Below are positions 23,551 to 27,599 of a DNA stretch of 64,000 nucleotides, one piece after another. The first letter of the stretch is position 1. Every line of letters begins with the position of its first letter. A program made the position numbers and the translations under genes. The notes below the pieces were generated by a model that saw only the letters and a program-made list of their open reading frames with translations, was not told the DNA's origin and did not search any database. This DNA is from a bacterium (lineage in GTDB: Bacteria > Patescibacteriota > Dojkabacteria > JAKAPS01 > JAJZLI01). The stretch lies in NCBI GenBank assembly GCA_021810605.1, contig JAJZIL010000003.1:214-64213 (forward strand), read 5' to 3'.

Positions 23551-25350
23551 CTAAGTGTTGTTAAAGTGCTTTGCTTGAGTATTATATAGTTTATAATAAT
23601 ATCCCTTATTCTTCATTAACTCTTCATGATATCCTTGTTCAACAATTTCACCATGATTTAAAACTATTATTTTTTGTATATATTTTATTATAGTGAAATT
23701 ATGTGAAATAATTAATGTTGTTTTATTTTTAATATACTTATATATTTCCTTAAATATTTTATCTTCAGATAATTTATCAATTGCAGATGTAGGCTCATCT
23801 AGTATAACCAAATTAGAATCCTTAAATAAAAATCTAGATATAGCAATTTTTTGTTTTTGTCCTCCAGAAAGATTGGTTCCCATATAAAACTCATTATCTA
23901 AGAATGTTTCATATTTATATTTTAAAGATTTAATATCTTTATCTAGAGTGCTTTTCATGGTGGTGCTTTTCATAAGATTAATGTTATTAATATTTTTTAT
24001 ATTTGAAATTGCAATATTTTCTTTTATTGAAAACCAAAACAATGAATATTCTTGAAATAAACTTCCCCATAATCTATAGTAACTCTCCAAATTTATATCT
24101 TTAATATTATAATTATCTATAAGTATTTCTCCTTCTGTAACATCATAAAACCTAGCTAAAAGTTTTACTATTGTACTTTTTCCTGCAGCATTAACACCTA
24201 CTATTGCAATACTTTCACCTTTATTAATCTTAAATGAAACATTTTTTAATACATATTTATGAGATTTAGGATATTTAAATGAAACATTTTTGAATTCTAT
24301 GCTTGGACTTTCATTTTTAAGTTTATAATTTTTATTTACCTTTATAACTGTCTGTATATTTAAAAGATCTCTATAATCTTGAGAATAATTTATATCATTA
24401 ATTATAATAGAACTTGCATACTCTATATGTGATAAATTACTAATAATAGTATTTAAGTTCATTATATAAAATGAATATAGACCAATTGATAAATATTTAT
24501 TTAAGACTTGTAATATTATCCATATTTGAATAATTCCAAAAATTATAGAATCTAAAATATAAGATAAAGATAAATACTTTGTTTTTGATCTAGATTTAGC
24601 TAGATATTCTTTTTGGAAAACTTTATTATGATACTTATACTTCTCTATTAAATACTTATTTATATTATAAATTTTAGCTTCTTTTCCTGAATTTAAATTC
24701 TGTAAGGCATATTTAGATTTAGATACATGTATTTTATTTTCTCCTTCAGTTTTCCATATGTTATACATTTCATTTCCATATTTTTTATCTATTATAAAAT
24801 TAATTATTATAGGTATAATAATTAACATAATAAATACAGGATTGAGTGTTAAGAATATTCCAGCAATTACCAATAAACCTGCAAGATTTAATATTAGATC
24901 GGGGATAGTATTTAATACTAAAGTTTTGATATTTTTATCTATACCTACTTCTACTTTATGATAAAGCAAAGAAATAGTTTGATCTTCTCTCTGTTGAAAA
25001 TCTAAAGAAGATATTTTTTCTAAAAATTTAGCCCCATGTATTATATCCCATTCAGAATTTAATTTTACAATTAAATAATGATTTATCTCAGAGGTTATAT
25101 TAAAGACTAATCTTAAAATTATAGATAATATTATTAGCGTTAAAATATAATCTGTAAGTATTGTTATATGATGTGCTAATGAATAAATAAGTGAATTAAT
25201 TATGAGAGATATTATAAATGTTATTGCTATAGGTATTAATTCATCTATTATAGAAATAAAATTTCTTAATAAATAAAATACAAATGAGGTTTCAAATCCT
25301 AATCTTATTGTCCACCAAAATAAATTTATCTTATTAAAAAACTTAAACAT
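23551..25350 (-). CDS. ABC transporter, fused permease/ATP-binding (exporter type, no C39 peptidase domain)
   Basis: N-terminal 6-TM domain; Walker A GVNAAGKST; signature LSGGQKQKIAISR; Walker B LVILDEPTSAID; located downstream of graspetide cluster 2. Confidence 0.8.
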   Translation of the reverse strand: MFKFFNKINLFWWTIRLGFETSFVFYLLRNFISIIDELIPIAITFIISLIINSLIYSLAHHITILTDYILTLIILSIILRLVFNITSEINHYLIVKLNSEWDIIHGAKFLEKISSLDFQQREDQTISLLYHKVEVGIDKNIKTLVLNTIPDLILNLAGLLVIAGIFLTLNPVFIMLIIIPIIINFIIDKKYGNEMYNIWKTEGENKIHVSKSKYALQNLNSGKEAKIYNINKYLIEKYKYHNKVFQKEYLAKSRSKTKYLSLSYILDSIIFGIIQIWIILQVLNKYLSIGLYSFYIMNLNTIISNLSHIEYASSIIINDINYSQDYRDLLNIQTVIKVNKNYKLKNESPSIEFKNVSFKYPKSHKYVLKNVSFKINKGESIAIVGVNAAGKSTIVKLLARFYDVTEGEILIDNYNIKDINLESYYRLWGSLFQEYSLFWFSIKENIAISNIKNINNINLMKSTTMKSTLDKDIKSLKYKYETFLDNEFYMGTNLSGGQKQKIAISRFLFKDSNLVILDEPTSAIDKLSEDKIFKEIYKYIKNKTTLIISHNFTIIKYIQKIIVLNHGEIVEQGYHEELMKNKGYYYKLYNTQAKHFNNT

Positions 25351-25373
25351 ATATTATTATATCATTAAAAATA

Positions 25374-26390
25374 TTAATAATTCTCTAAAAACTTAGCTAT
25401 CTCTAAAGATATAGAGAGATTAGTTGCATCTTCTATCCATAGATATTGTCCATTTGGGTTTATCTCTAAAAAATATATCTTCTCATCTTTATCTACTATT
25501 AAATCAATAGCAGAATAATTAAGCTTATAATATTTATTTATTTTTAATAATATATTTTTAATTTCTTTAGAAAGTTCACATGCTTCATAGGTTAAATTTT
25601 TATAGTCAGTCCTGAAATCTATTTTAGATTTTTCTGAATGAGAAAATATTTTTACAGCAAATATTTTTTTACCTATAATGGTCACTCTAATCTCATAAGC
25701 CTTGTCTATGAATTCTTGACATATTACAGGACAAGAATTTAAATTAATTTTTTTTATATTATCTATATTTGTTAACGTTGATTTTAATCCAATATTCTTT
25801 ATACCTAATTTTTGATTATTAAGACTTTTCATTATAAAAGATTTTTTAAAAGTCTTATATATAATATTCTTATTATTTGTTACTATTGTCTTTGGAACAT
25901 TTAAAAAATCACTATTATATTCAGATATAAGTTTAAGTTGTAATAATTTGTAATTTGATTTATCTATATCTGATATATTATTTACCCATTTTTTTATATT
26001 AATATTTAATATAATACTCTTAAAAAAATTATTTTTTTCTGAATTTACTATATGGTATAGATTTGGATCTTTTAAAAATTTCTCAGAGATTTCTATATAT
26101 CTAGGTTTTCTCCACCAACATATATCATAATAATCATTTTTTTTATTTTTGGTTTTAAATAAATATGTATTTTGTTGATTTACTTCAACAAAATAACCAT
26201 TATCTTCTAGAATTTTCATTCCAATTATATCAATGTCAACTTTATCTTTATCAATAAAGCTTAATACTCTTTTTACATGTACATCAGATTTTTCTGAAAT
26301 AATTAAAATTTTTTTCTTATTTTCTAATTTATTCATTTTCAATAATTTTAAGTAAGACGCTATAAGCTTATTAAATCTTCTTCTAAACAA
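25374..26390 (-). CDS. RiPP (graspetide/microviridin-type) ATP-grasp ligase
   Basis: Paralogous to the C-terminus of 11869..13689 (DICWWRKP, SHSEKSKIDFRTDY, LNYSAIDL, FLEINPNGQYLWIE); RimK-like ATP-grasp features. Confidence 0.65.
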   Translation of the reverse strand: MFRRRFNKLIASYLKLLKMNKLENKKKILIISEKSDVHVKRVLSFIDKDKVDIDIIGMKILEDNGYFVEVNQQNTYLFKTKNKKNDYYDICWWRKPRYIEISEKFLKDPNLYHIVNSEKNNFFKSIILNINIKKWVNNISDIDKSNYKLLQLKLISEYNSDFLNVPKTIVTNNKNIIYKTFKKSFIMKSLNNQKLGIKNIGLKSTLTNIDNIKKINLNSCPVICQEFIDKAYEIRVTIIGKKIFAVKIFSHSEKSKIDFRTDYKNLTYEACELSKEIKNILLKINKYYKLNYSAIDLIVDKDEKIYFLEINPNGQYLWIEDATNLSISLEIAKFLENY

Positions 26391-26445
26391 TAGAACAATT
26401 ACGTCTTCTTTATATTTTTAATGTAATTTTTTCTTATTTTAATAA

Positions 26446-27153
26446 TTATATTACTAATTCTTTTGCAATAGATCTCATTGACTCTCGAATTAATTTTACT
26501 TCTTTATCTTTTATAGCAATAATATTTTGATTACTATATTGTACTCCAATTTTAGAAGGAGATTTTTTCCAATTAACTATTATAGTGTTACTAGAAATAT
26601 TAGGATTTTCTAATTTTTTATAAATTACGCCAAAATAGATATTATCAGTATATTTTTTTGCCAAATTTTTTGCTATTTTTAATGTTAATCCAGATACAAT
26701 CCAATCATCAATAAAGAGAATCCTCAATGAATGCCTATCTAAATCACTATTTTTAGATATTTTTATAAGATTTAATATAATATCATTAAATCTTTCTTCT
26801 AAATAACTATAATATTCTAATTTAAGATACATAAAGTGTATTTTATGATCAATTGTAAGAAAGGGTTTATTATTGTTCATTTCTTTCCAAGTATAATAAG
26901 TTGCTAAACTAAAAAGCCTTCCTCCTGTATCACATCCTATTATTATTTGAGGCTTAACTTCTTCAATAAATTTACTTAAAGGTATCGATAACACTAGAAG
27001 ATCTTCTGGATTTAAATACTGAGAGTATTTTAAATTATCAGGTTCTCTTTTTTCTTCAATATTAAACTCTTTATATTCTTTCTCTAAAGTATTTCCAAAG
27101 ATTATATTTACACCATCAAATTTTTGTGTCTTATAATAAAAATCAGTCTCCAT
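26446..27153 (-). CDS. phosphoribosyltransferase-fold protein of unknown role in the graspetide cluster
   Basis: IIIGCDTGGRLFSLATYY and RILFIDDWIVSGLTL resemble the type I PRTase PRPP-binding loops. Confidence 0.35.
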   Translation of the reverse strand: METDFYYKTQKFDGVNIIFGNTLEKEYKEFNIEEKREPDNLKYSQYLNPEDLLVLSIPLSKFIEEVKPQIIIGCDTGGRLFSLATYYTWKEMNNNKPFLTIDHKIHFMYLKLEYYSYLEERFNDIILNLIKISKNSDLDRHSLRILFIDDWIVSGLTLKIAKNLAKKYTDNIYFGVIYKKLENPNISSNTIIVNWKKSPSKIGVQYSNQNIIAIKDKEVKLIRESMRSIAKELVI

Positions 27154-27184
27154 AATAATCTTAAAGTAAGTGGCTTTAAATTTA

Positions 27185-27319
27185 TTAAAGCCACCCTATA
27201 GGCCATTAAATATTATCTCTATCATCATATGCTGTATATGTCTCTTCTCCATTAGTTATTTCTTGAATCTCAGTATCTTGAATCCACTCTAATGGATTAA
27301 CTTCATTTAATGTTTCCAT
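27185..27319 (-). CDS. graspetide-type precursor peptide (44 aa)
   Basis: Hand translation METLNEVNPLEWIQDTEIQEITNGEETYTAYDDRDNINWPIGWL*. Leader shares METL...P(L/I)EW(I/L)xD with precursor 1; core rich in Thr/Tyr and Asp/Glu with no Lys; SD GGAGGTGATTATATT-ATG; operator upstream. Confidence 0.5.
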
Positions 27320-27382
27320 AATATAATCACCTCCTTCTTTTTTTAATTAATTATATTATATTGCTTATTAATAATTTTGTCT

Positions 27383-27398
27383 TTGCTATACATGGCAA
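27383..27398. promoter_or_regulatory. operator-like near-palindrome TTGCTATACATGGCAA upstream of precursor 3
   Basis: About 64 bp upstream of the ATG; embedded in the conserved cttattaataattttgtctttgctata block. Confidence 0.5.
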
Positions 27399-27599
27399 AT
27401 CTCCATTTTACATTGATTTAAAAGAATAATTTTGAGGTATAAATTTACAAATTTATAATATTGTCTCTGGGTATCGTAGACGAAGTTAGAACATTTATAA
27501 AATTAAATCCTTCTTAATATTTCTAAATATTCTTTATTCGTAAGTCTAAGTAATATTATATTTTTCTCAATCTGAAACCTATACTAATAAATTTTATTT

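What the first reader, a model, noticed from the sequence alone, without database searches (positions are those of the whole stretch)
23551..27400. Graspetide-like cluster 2: Lys-free Thr/Tyr plus Asp/Glu core, PRTase-fold accessory protein, ATP-grasp ligase and ABC exporter
The 44-aa precursor is METLNEVNPLEWIQDTEIQEITNGEETYTAYDDRDNINWPIGWL. Its core has several Thr and Tyr and many Asp/Glu but no Lys. With a microviridin-type ATP-grasp ligase this would predict omega-ester-only (Thr/Ser to Asp/Glu) macrolactones, as in plesiocin or thuringinin-type graspetides rather than microviridins. The operon also encodes a 235-aa protein with phosphoribosyltransferase-like PRPP loops, which is not a known graspetide biosynthetic component. 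A dedicated ABC exporter follows.
Basis: partly seen in the sequence, partly recalled or inferred. Interest (0 to 1): 0.7.

Follow-up and report, generated by a model that had tools for sequence, protein, structure and literature searches.

The report
Graspetide operon with PRTase-fold accessory gene
A very AT-rich uncultured bacterium carries an intact small operon for a ring-forming modified peptide (a graspetide); unusually, a highly diverged phosphoribosyltransferase-like gene sits between the peptide gene and its cyclising enzyme, and its role is unknown.

Summary
The gene cluster is real.

The ligase belongs with RiPP macrocyclases, not RimK. It scores 159 bits on TIGR04187 against 50 bits on RimK, its PDB hits are MdnB, CdnC, MdnC and PsnB, and the DFR motif is present.

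The precursor belongs to a six-member family found next to related ligases. The family shares a MET..P(L/I/F)(E/D)W leader and a T-(Y/W/H)-T...DDxD core. There is no Lys, so ester-only rings are the expected product.

Its role is unproven. It could be a partner subunit, a PRPP-dependent tailoring enzyme or a passenger gene. I classify the cluster as a new variant of a known kind, of moderate interest.

The parts
27383..27398 (-). 16-bp palindromic operator TTGCCATGTATAGCAA. It abuts a -35-like AAGACA, followed after 17 nt by TATAAT (27355-27360).
   Evidence: the pattern occurs 3 times in the window against 0.04 expected, each about 62 nt upstream of a RiPP precursor ATG; the roughly 105-nt cassette is conserved upstream of 8 precursor genes; promoter-like match at 27383..27355.
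27206..27319 (-). Precursor peptide gene, 37 aa: METLNEVNPLEWIQDTEIQEITNGEETYTAYDDRDNI, with a TAA stop. The predicted leader contains NPLEWIQD. The predicted core is ...TYTAYDDRDNI, with donors T27/T29 and acceptors D32/D33/D35.
27168..27196 (-). 12-bp stem, 5-nt loop hairpin directly after the precursor stop codon. It is probably a leaky terminator or a transcript-stabilising element that sets the precursor-to-enzyme ratio.
   Evidence: -15.7 kcal/mol, z -2.8; the ortholog gives -19.6 kcal/mol, z -5.4; two compensatory base-pair changes between the window and L006.
26446..27153 (-). 235-aa divergent protein with a type I phosphoribosyltransferase fold. It has a PPi-loop-like 70-IIIGCDTGGR-79 and a PRPP loop 145-ILFIDDWIVSGLT-157. 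The N-terminal ~45 aa are unique to the cluster copy.
25374..26336 (-). 320-aa graspetide-type ATP-grasp macrocyclase. The DFR motif lies at residues 240-242.
23551..25350 (-). 599-aa ABC exporter with fused transmembrane and ATPase domains (MsbA-like half-transporter). It has no C39 peptidase domain.
   Evidence: It is syntenic in the ortholog and in the L020 and L026 clusters.
22906..23549 (-). Last gene of the operon, of unknown function. In the window it is split into 53-aa and 161-aa ORFs that overlap by ATGA. In ortholog L006 it is a single 219-aa gene whose start overlaps the ABC stop codon.
   Evidence: dN/dS is 0.28 for the 161-aa part. The only family hint is a weak, unsupported NDK match (Pfam E 0.17; nothing in the PDB).

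Best explanation
This is an intact, co-transcribed graspetide (omega-ester peptide) operon in a very AT-rich uncultured bacterium, probably a Patescibacteria/CPR member.

Proposed mechanism:
1. A promoter carrying a palindromic operator, shared with the other RiPP precursor genes of the island, drives a strongly translated 37-aa precursor.
2. A hairpin after the precursor's stop codon lets only part of the transcripts continue into the enzyme genes.
3. The ATP-grasp ligase binds the leader (MET..NPLEW..D) and uses ATP to activate Asp side chains of the core. It esterifies them with Thr27 and Thr29, giving a small bicyclic, lactone-only product (two water losses, possibly three).
4. The ABC half-transporter exports the product. 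Because it has no peptidase domain, the leader must be removed by a separate enzyme. The candidate is the Tiki/ChaN-like protein encoded beside the orthologous and sister clusters.

The 235-aa PRTase-fold protein is a recruited, fast-evolving offshoot of a PRTase-like family seen so far only in CPR bacteria. It keeps the ribose-5-phosphate/PRPP loop but has replaced residues that the rest of the family conserves. I judge it more likely than not (about 0.6) that it works in this pathway. The two candidate roles are roughly equally likely: an obligatory partner or ligand-sensing subunit of the ligase, or a PRPP-dependent enzyme that adds (phospho)ribose to the peptide.

Shown here: gene content, homologies, the fold, purifying selection, and conservation of the precursor family. 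Inferred: the ring chemistry, leader cleavage, and any role of the PRTase-like protein.
For: Ligase:
- NCBIfam scores: TIGR04187 'ATP-grasp ribosomal peptide maturase' 1.7e-46, MvdD 1e-35, MvdC 4e-34, against RimK 1.8e-13.
- The significant PDB hits are all graspetide ligases: MdnB 1e-23, CdnC 1.6e-22, AMdnB, MdnC and PsnB.
- The D(F/W)R motif, which one search reports as critical for activity, is present.

Precursor:
- It has a strong SD, a hairpin, and 35/37 identity to the ortholog, with every change in the N-terminal leader.
- The family of six precursors has W12, T27, D32 and D33 invariant.

PRTase-like protein:
- A profile search found 139 relatives, and 30 of the 50 scanned hit Pfam PF00156.
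- D75, G77, R79, D149, D150, G155 and T157 are retained, while R76, R109, a conserved Ser, G179, D183 and D197 are replaced.
- dN/dS is 0.36, and GC3 equals that of its neighbours, so it is neither decaying nor a recent foreign insertion.
- In the ortholog only 17 nt separate it from the ligase gene.

Precedents:
- A graspetide synthetase that is inactive without a co-encoded partner protein whose fold is borrowed from another family (PMC13097080).
Against: The PRTase-like gene and the ligase occur together in only two closely related lineages; no more distant co-occurrence was found among the representatives of about 15 billion proteins.

Six other members of the family sit in unrelated contexts.

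The closest sister cluster (L017, ligase 52% identical, similar precursor) has no PRTase-like gene.

The protein itself does not reach significance on Pfam PF00156.

The basic residue of the PPi loop (R76 in 47 of 48 relatives) is Thr here, which may impair PRPP binding.

Several neighbouring genes in the window are split, so the island may be eroding. They are the last operon gene, the Tiki-like gene, a histidine phosphatase, an ABC-F gene, and the cluster-1 precursor with an in-frame TAA.

No chemistry has been observed.
Confidence: 0.6

Rival explanations
1. The graspetide cluster is real, but the PRTase-like gene is a passenger. On this view it is a diverged copy of a CPR family with its own function (nucleotide salvage or something unknown) that happens to lie in the operon and plays no part in making the peptide.
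For: All six other family contexts examined are non-RiPP. Sister cluster L017 lacks the gene. The C1-type paralogous ligases carry instead an unrelated N-terminal domain. The gene evolves faster than its neighbours (dN/dS 0.36 against 0.13-0.19).
Against: Its position between the precursor and the ligase is conserved, and in the ortholog only 17 nt separate it from the ligase gene. It has lost five or six residues that the family otherwise conserves, and it lacks the N-terminal extension of its nearest relatives, which argues against it keeping the family's ordinary function. It sits on an isolated long branch. It remains under purifying selection.
Confidence: 0.28
2. The PRTase-like protein is a self-protection element, either a resistant copy or a decoy of the cellular target of the mature peptide. 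This would follow the known pattern of duplicated housekeeping genes inside biosynthetic clusters.
For: It is a cluster-embedded, divergent paralog of a family that is widespread in related bacteria. The idea that duplicated housekeeping genes serve self-resistance in graspetide clusters is raised in PMC13097080.
Against: A resistant replacement enzyme should keep the family's conserved polar residues, but R76, R109, the conserved Ser, D183 and D197 are all changed. Characterised graspetides are mainly protease inhibitors (my own knowledge). No canonical copy is visible in the 64-kb window, although the window is too short for this absence to be informative.
Confidence: 0.08
3. The locus is a decaying remnant and no longer makes a product in this organism.
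For: Several adjacent genes are split or truncated in the window and in independent assemblies. The paralogous cluster-1 precursor carries an in-frame TAA where cluster 2 has CAA. Related ligases in L017, L020 and L026 are frameshifted at the same place.
Against: The precursor, the PRTase-like gene, the ligase and the ABC gene are all intact in the window and in five independent assemblies, with dN/dS of 0.13-0.36. The promoter cassette, SD and hairpin are conserved.
Confidence: 0.1

Closest known systems
Microviridin-type graspetide clusters (MdnA-E; ligases MdnB/MdnC, PDB 5ig9/5ig8)
   Same: The ligase is homologous (MdnB 1e-23; MvdD and MvdC models 1e-35 and 4e-34). A small precursor gene lies upstream, an ABC transporter is in the operon, and the D(F/W)R motif is present.
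   Different: There is one ligase rather than two. The precursor has no Lys and so no omega-amide. I saw no GNAT gene in the operon. The leader is NPLEW rather than PFFARFL (the latter from my own knowledge). Scores fall below the MvdC and MvdD equivalog cutoffs. A PRTase-fold gene is present.
Graspetide loci of CPR bacteria, ATP-grasp branches 1 and 2 of Makarova et al. 2022 (PMC8939145)
   Same: The hosts are probably the same kind of organism. Precursors are short, with a P-hydrophobic leader motif and a T...D...D core signature. Tiki/TraB-like peptidase genes lie nearby.
   Different: The Thr spacing is TxT, not TxxxT. This precursor family is not found in that paper's held supplementary files. 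There is no 'cluster 23' lipoprotein. A PRTase-fold protein is not mentioned in the paper (0 occurrences).
Partner-protein-dependent graspetide biosynthesis (rosaritide MirB/MirC, PMC13097080)
   Same: Beside the ligase there is an extra, lineage-specific protein whose fold is borrowed from an unrelated family. MirC is needed for ligase activity and co-purifies with the ligase.
   Different: The fold differs (SurA/chaperone-like against PRTase). Dependence has not been tested here. PF00156/PRTase is not found in that survey's held co-occurrence tables.
Type I phosphoribosyltransferases (XPRT 1y0b, P. horikoshii purine PRTase 1vdm, HGPRT) and PRPP-dependent O-ribofuranosyltransferases (CriT of Bcs3 8a0c; 7shg)
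   Same: It shares the five-stranded alpha/beta core, the PRPP loop with the DD pair and (S/T)GxT, and a 'G-x-x-x-G-G' loop after the first strand.
   Different: Sequence identity is 7-20%. It does not reach the Pfam or NCBIfam thresholds itself. The basic residue of the PPi loop is replaced by Thr. It has a unique N-terminal 45 aa. The acceptor is unknown.

Membership tests
Graspetide (omega-ester-containing peptide) biosynthetic cluster | ATP-grasp ligase of the RiPP-maturase clade (MdnB/MdnC/PsnB-like) rather than RimK or GshB | tested here: met
   TIGR04187 scores 158.9 bits against 50.5 bits for RimK; the six significant PDB hits (E<=1.4e-4) are all graspetide ligases, and no RimK or glutathione synthetase chain appears at E<=1. 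The score is below each subfamily's curated cutoff, so this is a divergent branch.
Graspetide (omega-ester-containing peptide) biosynthetic cluster | D(F/W)R motif of graspetide synthetases | tested here: met
   Residues 240-242 (DFR) align with the DWR of MdnB and CdnC. The motif is described as critical in PMC13097080.
Graspetide (omega-ester-containing peptide) biosynthetic cluster | Adjacent small precursor with a leader and a core holding conserved Thr/Ser donors and Asp/Glu acceptors | tested here: met
   The 37-aa ORF lies 52 nt upstream of the next gene. Six homologous precursors have W12, T27, D32 and D33 invariant.
Graspetide (omega-ester-containing peptide) biosynthetic cluster | Leader motif Phhx(1,2)h (Makarova 2022) | tested here: inconclusive
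   The leader has P-L-E-W-I (or P-I-E-W-L, P-F-D-W-L). This is a proline followed by hydrophobic residues, but with an acidic residue at the second 'h' position.
Graspetide (omega-ester-containing peptide) biosynthetic cluster | Side-chain macrolactone or macrolactam bonds in the product | not testable with these tools
   This needs MS or NMR of the co-expressed product.
Microviridin (graspetide group 1) | Core with Lys for an omega-amide (TxKxPSDx(E/D)(D/E), from my own knowledge), and two ligases | tested here: not met
   There is no Lys in the peptide and only one ligase in the operon. The MvdC and MvdD models score 118-124 bits against cutoffs of 425-475.
Plesiocin/thuringinin-type graspetides (groups 2 and 3) | Core motifs TTxxxxEE or TxxTxxxExxD-like (recalled from memory) and a PsnB-like ligase | tested here: not met
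   The core is TYTAYDDRD. PsnB (7drm) matches at only 1.4e-4, against MdnB at 1e-23. The motif definitions come from memory and were not checked in a paper.
Type I phosphoribosyltransferase superfamily (Pfam PF00156) | PRPP-binding loop: four hydrophobic residues, two acidic residues, then xxx(S/T)Gx(S/T) | tested here: met
   145-ILFIDDWIVSGLT-157 aligns to VLIVEDVVDSGLT of Hpt and to VVIVDDVSDTGKT of 1vdm.
Type I phosphoribosyltransferase superfamily (Pfam PF00156) | PRTase alpha/beta core fold | tested here: met
Type I phosphoribosyltransferase superfamily (Pfam PF00156) | Significant match to the family profile | tested here: inconclusive
   The protein itself gives no Pfam hit at E<=0.1. 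However, 30 of 50 members of its HMMER-defined family hit PF00156, best 6.1e-10.
Type I phosphoribosyltransferase superfamily (Pfam PF00156) | Basic residue in the PPi loop, and catalytic competence | tested here: inconclusive
   The family consensus is GCDRGGR and this protein has GCDTGGR: R76 is Thr, while R79 is kept. Activity is not testable here.
Housekeeping salvage PRTases (Apt, Upp, Hpt, Xpt) | Score above the NCBIfam equivalog cutoffs | tested here: not met
   The best match is HGPRTase at 15.7 bits against a cutoff of 150. Family members reach only E of about 1e-4 on Apt models.
PRPP-dependent O-ribofuranosyltransferases (CriT-type) | PRTase-like catalytic domain with an open acceptor site, helical-bundle domains and a paired phosphatase | tested here: inconclusive
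Peptidase-containing ABC transporters (PCAT) | N-terminal C39 peptidase domain | tested here: not met
   Pfam finds only ABC_membrane and ABC_tran. The alignments to PCAT models start at model position ~143-187, beyond the peptidase part.
Shosta anti-phage system (ShosT PRTase) | ShosT-like PRTase paired with ShosA | tested here: not met
   There is only a weak ShosT match, confined to the PRPP-loop region (E 6.7e-4). No partner gene is present.

The most novel reading that the evidence does not exclude
The PRTase-fold protein is a peptide-modifying enzyme. On this reading it uses PRPP to attach ribose-5-phosphate to a side chain of the cyclised core: a Tyr or Thr hydroxyl, or an Asp or Glu carboxylate. 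That would be the first PRPP-dependent (phospho)ribosylated RiPP, and a new use of the PRTase fold on a peptide acceptor. The pattern fits a change of acceptor: donor-site residues are retained while other family-conserved polar residues are replaced. The precursors of the two PRTase-containing clusters also differ from their PRTase-less relatives, having a second Tyr and an ...RDNI tail.
Probability: 0.2. Interest if true: 0.85.

Novelty: new variant of a known kind. Interest (0 to 1): 0.55.

Why it matters
Graspetides are a fast-growing RiPP class, and their accessory enzymes are the main source of new chemistry. No PRTase-fold protein is reported with graspetides or other RiPPs in the papers and surveys I could search.

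If the protein is a partner subunit, it would be another case of a graspetide synthetase depending on a partner protein, this time with a fold borrowed from nucleotide metabolism. If it is catalytic, it would add PRPP-dependent ribosylation to RiPP chemistry.

The host also matters. It appears to be an ultra-small, AT-rich, uncultured bacterium that packs at least three RiPP clusters under one shared operator. This bears on how such organisms interact with hosts and competitors.

The caveat is that the arrangement is rare: it occurs in only two closely related lineages.

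Tried and rejected
- **Alternative genetic code (TGA as Trp or Gly):** rejected. The longest ORFs barely change between codes. TGA replaces TAA as the precursor's stop codon in the ortholog. The split histidine-phosphatase ORFs are in different frames (40 nt apart).
- **AF2 with the two-sequence alignment:** unusable (pLDDT 41). It was redone with 50 family members.
- **Is the ~295-aa N-terminal domain fused to the paralogous cluster-1 ligases a hidden PRTase-like domain?** No. 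BLASTP finds nothing, and hhalign gives a probability of 0.2%.
- **Is the last operon gene (219 aa in the ortholog) a nucleoside diphosphate kinase?** It shows motif-level resemblance only. Pfam NDK gives E 0.17, with nothing in the PDB or NCBIfam. I treat it as unknown.
- **Metagenome scan for more clusters:** the first alignment had no usable conserved stretch. The second found only one distant, unrelated locus.
- **Genome scan with the PRTase-like family:** this gave four CPR loci, none with an ATP-grasp gene.
- **Naming the organism from its iPGM protein:** inconclusive. The closest named relatives are Clostridia at 45-48% identity, and closer relatives are unnamed MAGs. The CPR assignment rests on the ligase's nearest named homolog and on the distribution of the PRTase-like family.
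- **afdb50 fold library:** unavailable.
- **Defence-system membership:** rejected.
- **Rfam:** only tRNAs were found.

Full report
**What is in the sequence**

The window is very AT-rich (20-30% GC) and is read with the standard code. Long ORFs are dense under table 11 and hardly change under tables 4 or 25.

On the minus strand between 27319 and 23551 lie four closely spaced ORFs:
- a 37-aa ORF at 27206-27319;
- a 235-aa ORF at 26446-27153;
- an ATP-grasp ORF at 25374-26336, which is 320 aa from the ATG that public gene calls also use;
- a 599-aa ABC transporter at 23551-25350.

The codon after ...DNI is TAA. The reported tail 'NWPIGWL' comes from translating that stop as Asn and continuing to the next in-frame TAA. 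Those bases form the 5' arm of a 12-bp hairpin (-15.7 kcal/mol, z -2.8). In the orthologous locus L006 the stop is TGA at the same codon. There the hairpin is kept through two compensatory pair changes, while the would-be peptide tail is not conserved. The true precursor is METLNEVNPLEWIQDTEIQEITNGEETYTAYDDRDNI, and it has no Lys.

**Is the small ORF a real precursor gene?**

Several lines of evidence say yes.
- It has the only strong Shine-Dalgarno sequence in the operon (AAGGAGGTGA).
- The same cluster occurs in five independent assemblies with identical proteins.
- It also occurs in a diverged lineage (L006-L011). There the 235-aa protein is 77% identical, the ligase 87% and the ABC transporter 90%, yet the peptide is 35/37 identical, and both changes lie in the first five residues.
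- Related ligases at 50-57% identity are preceded by related peptides.
- An alignment of the six peptides shows a shared leader, MET..(P/T)(L/I/F)(E/D)W(L/I).., and a shared core, T-(Y/W/H)-T followed by an acidic cluster DDxD or DNDD. W12, T27, D32 and D33 are invariant.

This conservation pattern is what one expects for donor Thr and acceptor Asp residues of ester cross-links.

**The ligase**

Pfam sees only a RimK-like ATP-grasp domain. NCBIfam separates the possibilities. TIGR04187 'ATP-grasp ribosomal peptide maturase' scores 158.9 bits, MvdD 123.5, MvdC 118.3 and the grasp-with-spasm maturase 86.4, whereas RimK scores 50.5 bits.

The significant PDB hits are all graspetide macrocyclases: MdnB at 1e-23, CdnC at 1.6e-22 over the full length, AMdnB, MdnC, an MvdD-like protein and PsnB.

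The D(F/W)R motif, described as critical for graspetide synthetase activity (PMC13097080), is present as DFR and aligns to the DWR of MdnB and CdnC.

All scores are below the curated subfamily cutoffs. Only five close relatives (at least 50% identity) exist among 5.8 billion clustered proteins, so this is a rare, divergent branch.

**The exporter**

The 599-aa protein is an MsbA-like fused permease/ATPase. It has no N-terminal C39 peptidase domain, so it is not a PCAT, and the leader must be removed by another enzyme.

A candidate is a roughly 234-aa protein with GD/ExH-type motifs. It is encoded directly upstream of the ortholog cluster and downstream of the L017 ligase. The L017 copy weakly matches the erythromycin esterase and ChaN (Tiki superfamily) models (E 0.01 and 0.08). 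The two copies are distantly related to each other (E 2e-4). In the window this gene is displaced to 21049-21731 and split.

Makarova et al. noted Tiki/TraB-like peptidases in graspetide loci of CPR bacteria.

**The 235-aa protein**

By direct search it is almost an orphan: one 76%-identical relative, no Pfam hit and only a marginal HGPRTase match (E 0.009).

An exhaustive profile search against 1.84 billion representatives found 139 relatives, with a steep drop from 501 bits (the ortholog) to 126 bits. Fifty aligned members share the consensus ..P.IVIGCDRGGRLF.LA.., PFPTLDGK.HFAR.S and LRVLFIDDWV..G.T. Thirty of the fifty hit Pfam PF00156, Pribosyltran. A profile of the family aligns both signature loops to the P. 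horikoshii purine PRTase 1vdm.

So the 'PRPP loop' observation is correct and the fold is established. The protein is not a housekeeping Apt, Upp or Hpt, because its scores are an order of magnitude below the equivalog cutoffs.

**Is the PRTase-like gene part of the pathway?**

Evidence for:
- It lies between the precursor and the ligase in both lineages, and in the ortholog it is 17 nt from the ligase gene.
- Its GC3 equals that of its neighbours.
- It is under purifying selection (dN/dS 0.36), though more relaxed than the ligase (0.19) and the ABC transporter (0.13).
- It is an isolated long branch within its family.
- It lacks the roughly 140-aa N-terminal extension of its nearest relatives and has instead a unique 45-aa N-terminus.
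- It keeps D75, G77, R79 and the whole ribose-5-phosphate loop (D149, D150, G155, T157). It has replaced residues conserved in 39-47 of 48 relatives: R76 to T, R109 to Y, a conserved Ser deleted, G179 to K, D183 to N or Y, and D197 to K.

Evidence against:
- Six other family members examined sit in unrelated contexts in Saccharibacteria, Woesebacteria and unnamed contigs, with no ATP-grasp gene nearby.
- The sister cluster L017 has a similar precursor and ligase but no PRTase-like gene.
- The paralogous 'cluster 1' type ligases carry an unrelated ~295-aa N-terminal domain instead.
- The association is limited to one narrow lineage.

I put the probability that the protein acts in the pathway at about 0.6. 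I split that roughly evenly between two models.
- A partner or ligand-sensing subunit. The precedent is MirC, a partner required for rosaritide synthetase activity.
- A PRPP-dependent tailoring enzyme. The precedent is CriT, a PRTase-like domain that transfers ribose-5-phosphate from PRPP to a hydroxyl group.

A passenger gene (about 0.28) and a self-protection role (about 0.08) remain open.

**Comparison with what is known**

No paper in the searchable library combines graspetides with phosphoribosyltransferases. The four papers that combine the RiPP class name, 'precursor peptide' and 'phosphoribosyltransferase' do not appear to concern a PRTase in RiPP maturation; the one I opened did not.

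Makarova et al. 2022 do not mention PRTases, and their held supplementary files do not contain this precursor family. The 2026 RODEO survey of more than 20,000 predicted graspetides does not list PF00156 or a PRTase among co-occurring proteins in the held supplementary tables, nor these precursors.

The cluster is therefore a graspetide cluster (a known kind) with a new precursor family and an unprecedented accessory fold. I class it as a new variant of a known kind.

**Organism**

No ribosomal RNA is in the window. The ligase's nearest named relative is from a 'Patescibacteria group bacterium'. All four genome hits of the PRTase-like family are CPR bacteria. A housekeeping protein (iPGM) has only unnamed close relatives. 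A CPR origin is likely but not proven.

**Context and state of the locus**

The window holds two further RiPP clusters.
- A paralogous graspetide cluster has a 606-aa fused ligase at 11869-13689. Its precursor carries an in-frame TAA where cluster 2 has CAA.
- A YcaO/dehydrogenase/S9-peptidase cluster has a Cys-rich 53-aa precursor.

All three precursor genes are preceded, at about 62 nt, by the palindrome TTGCYATGNWTRGCAA (3 sites against 0.04 expected). A roughly 105-nt cassette comprising the operator, TATAAT, the SD and ATGGAA is conserved upstream of eight precursor genes of five kinds in the fetched loci. This points to a single regulon.

Several flanking genes are split in the window and in independent assemblies, so the island is in flux. 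The four core genes of cluster 2 are nevertheless intact.

**Verdict**

The graspetide interpretation is supported. The 'plesiocin/thuringinin-type' label is not supported. The role of the PRTase-fold protein is the interesting open question, and a simple co-expression and MS experiment could settle it. Interest 0.55.

Noticed in passing
window 13928-13943, 20632-20647, 27383-27398; also L006 249-264, 2469-2484, 8092-8107; L007 201-216; L020 689-704; L026 2266-2281: A 16-bp palindrome TTGCYATGNWTRGCAA lies about 62 nt upstream of every RiPP precursor gene seen (3 sites in the window against 0.04 expected). It is part of a roughly 105-nt conserved cassette (operator, TATAAT, AAGGAGGTGA, ATGGAA) shared by eight precursor genes of five different kinds, and nearly all of these precursors start with ME(T/E/I)L (one with METD). 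This looks like one regulon, and possibly a mobile promoter-leader module. The regulator is unknown; an XRE-type HTH gene lies next to the L020 copy.
   Followed up: partly
window 11869-13864 (ligase 11869-13689; precursor about 13727-13864), minus strand: A paralogous graspetide cluster ('cluster 1') is present. Its 606-aa protein has a C-terminal half 56% identical to the cluster-2 ligase and an N-terminal ~295 aa that match nothing known. Its precursor, METLKIDIITPIEWLTDNDI*EFDDSIVMWQTHSTHKQDADDTNDD, has an in-frame TAA exactly where cluster 2 has CAA (Gln). It is therefore either a pseudogene or needs readthrough. Intact versions exist in L020 and L026.
   Followed up: partly
window 16267-20570, minus strand: A third RiPP cluster is present. 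It has a 53-aa Cys-rich precursor (…SSSTCGDGNRCQCNNCSCGNGHRC, 20409-20570), a YcaO/SagD-type cyclodehydratase (18997-20277, TIGR03604 1e-53), a nitroreductase-type dehydrogenase (18248-18994) and an S9 prolyl oligopeptidase (16267-18231). This is a thiazole/oxazole-type (TOMM) cluster.
   Followed up: partly
L017 7993-8933; L020 971-2762; L026 579-1503: Three related ligase genes from different assemblies are all frameshifted at the same place, within ...KIFAAKIFSHSEKSKIDF..., an A/T homopolymer-rich stretch. The cause could be recurrent slippage (phase variation), shared decay or an assembly artefact; this was not resolved.
   Followed up: no
window 21049-21731, 22313-22843, 22906-23549, 27600-28203: Four genes flanking cluster 2 are split or truncated compared with the ortholog locus L006. 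They are the Tiki/ChaN-like gene (57+161 aa against 234 aa), an ABC-F ATPase (176 aa against 536 aa), the last operon gene (53+161 aa against 219 aa) and a histidine phosphatase (45+141 aa). The same splits occur in independent assemblies, so they are real and not sequencing errors.
   Followed up: partly
L007 279-2916; L006 341-2083: In the ortholog lineage the region upstream of cluster 2 is variable. One contig carries yet another graspetide cluster: a 57-aa precursor, a 342-aa MvdD-type ligase and a 254-aa methyltransferase. Another contig carries a 67-aa peptide and a 246-aa protein with a weak IS200-like match. This looks like a hypervariable RiPP island.
   Followed up: no
window 30433-35345 and 53474-54373: Restriction-modification genes flank the RiPP island. 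They are a ResIII-type helicase/endonuclease (955 aa) with an N6/N4 DNA methyltransferase (682 aa), and an Mrr-type restriction endonuclease.
   Followed up: no
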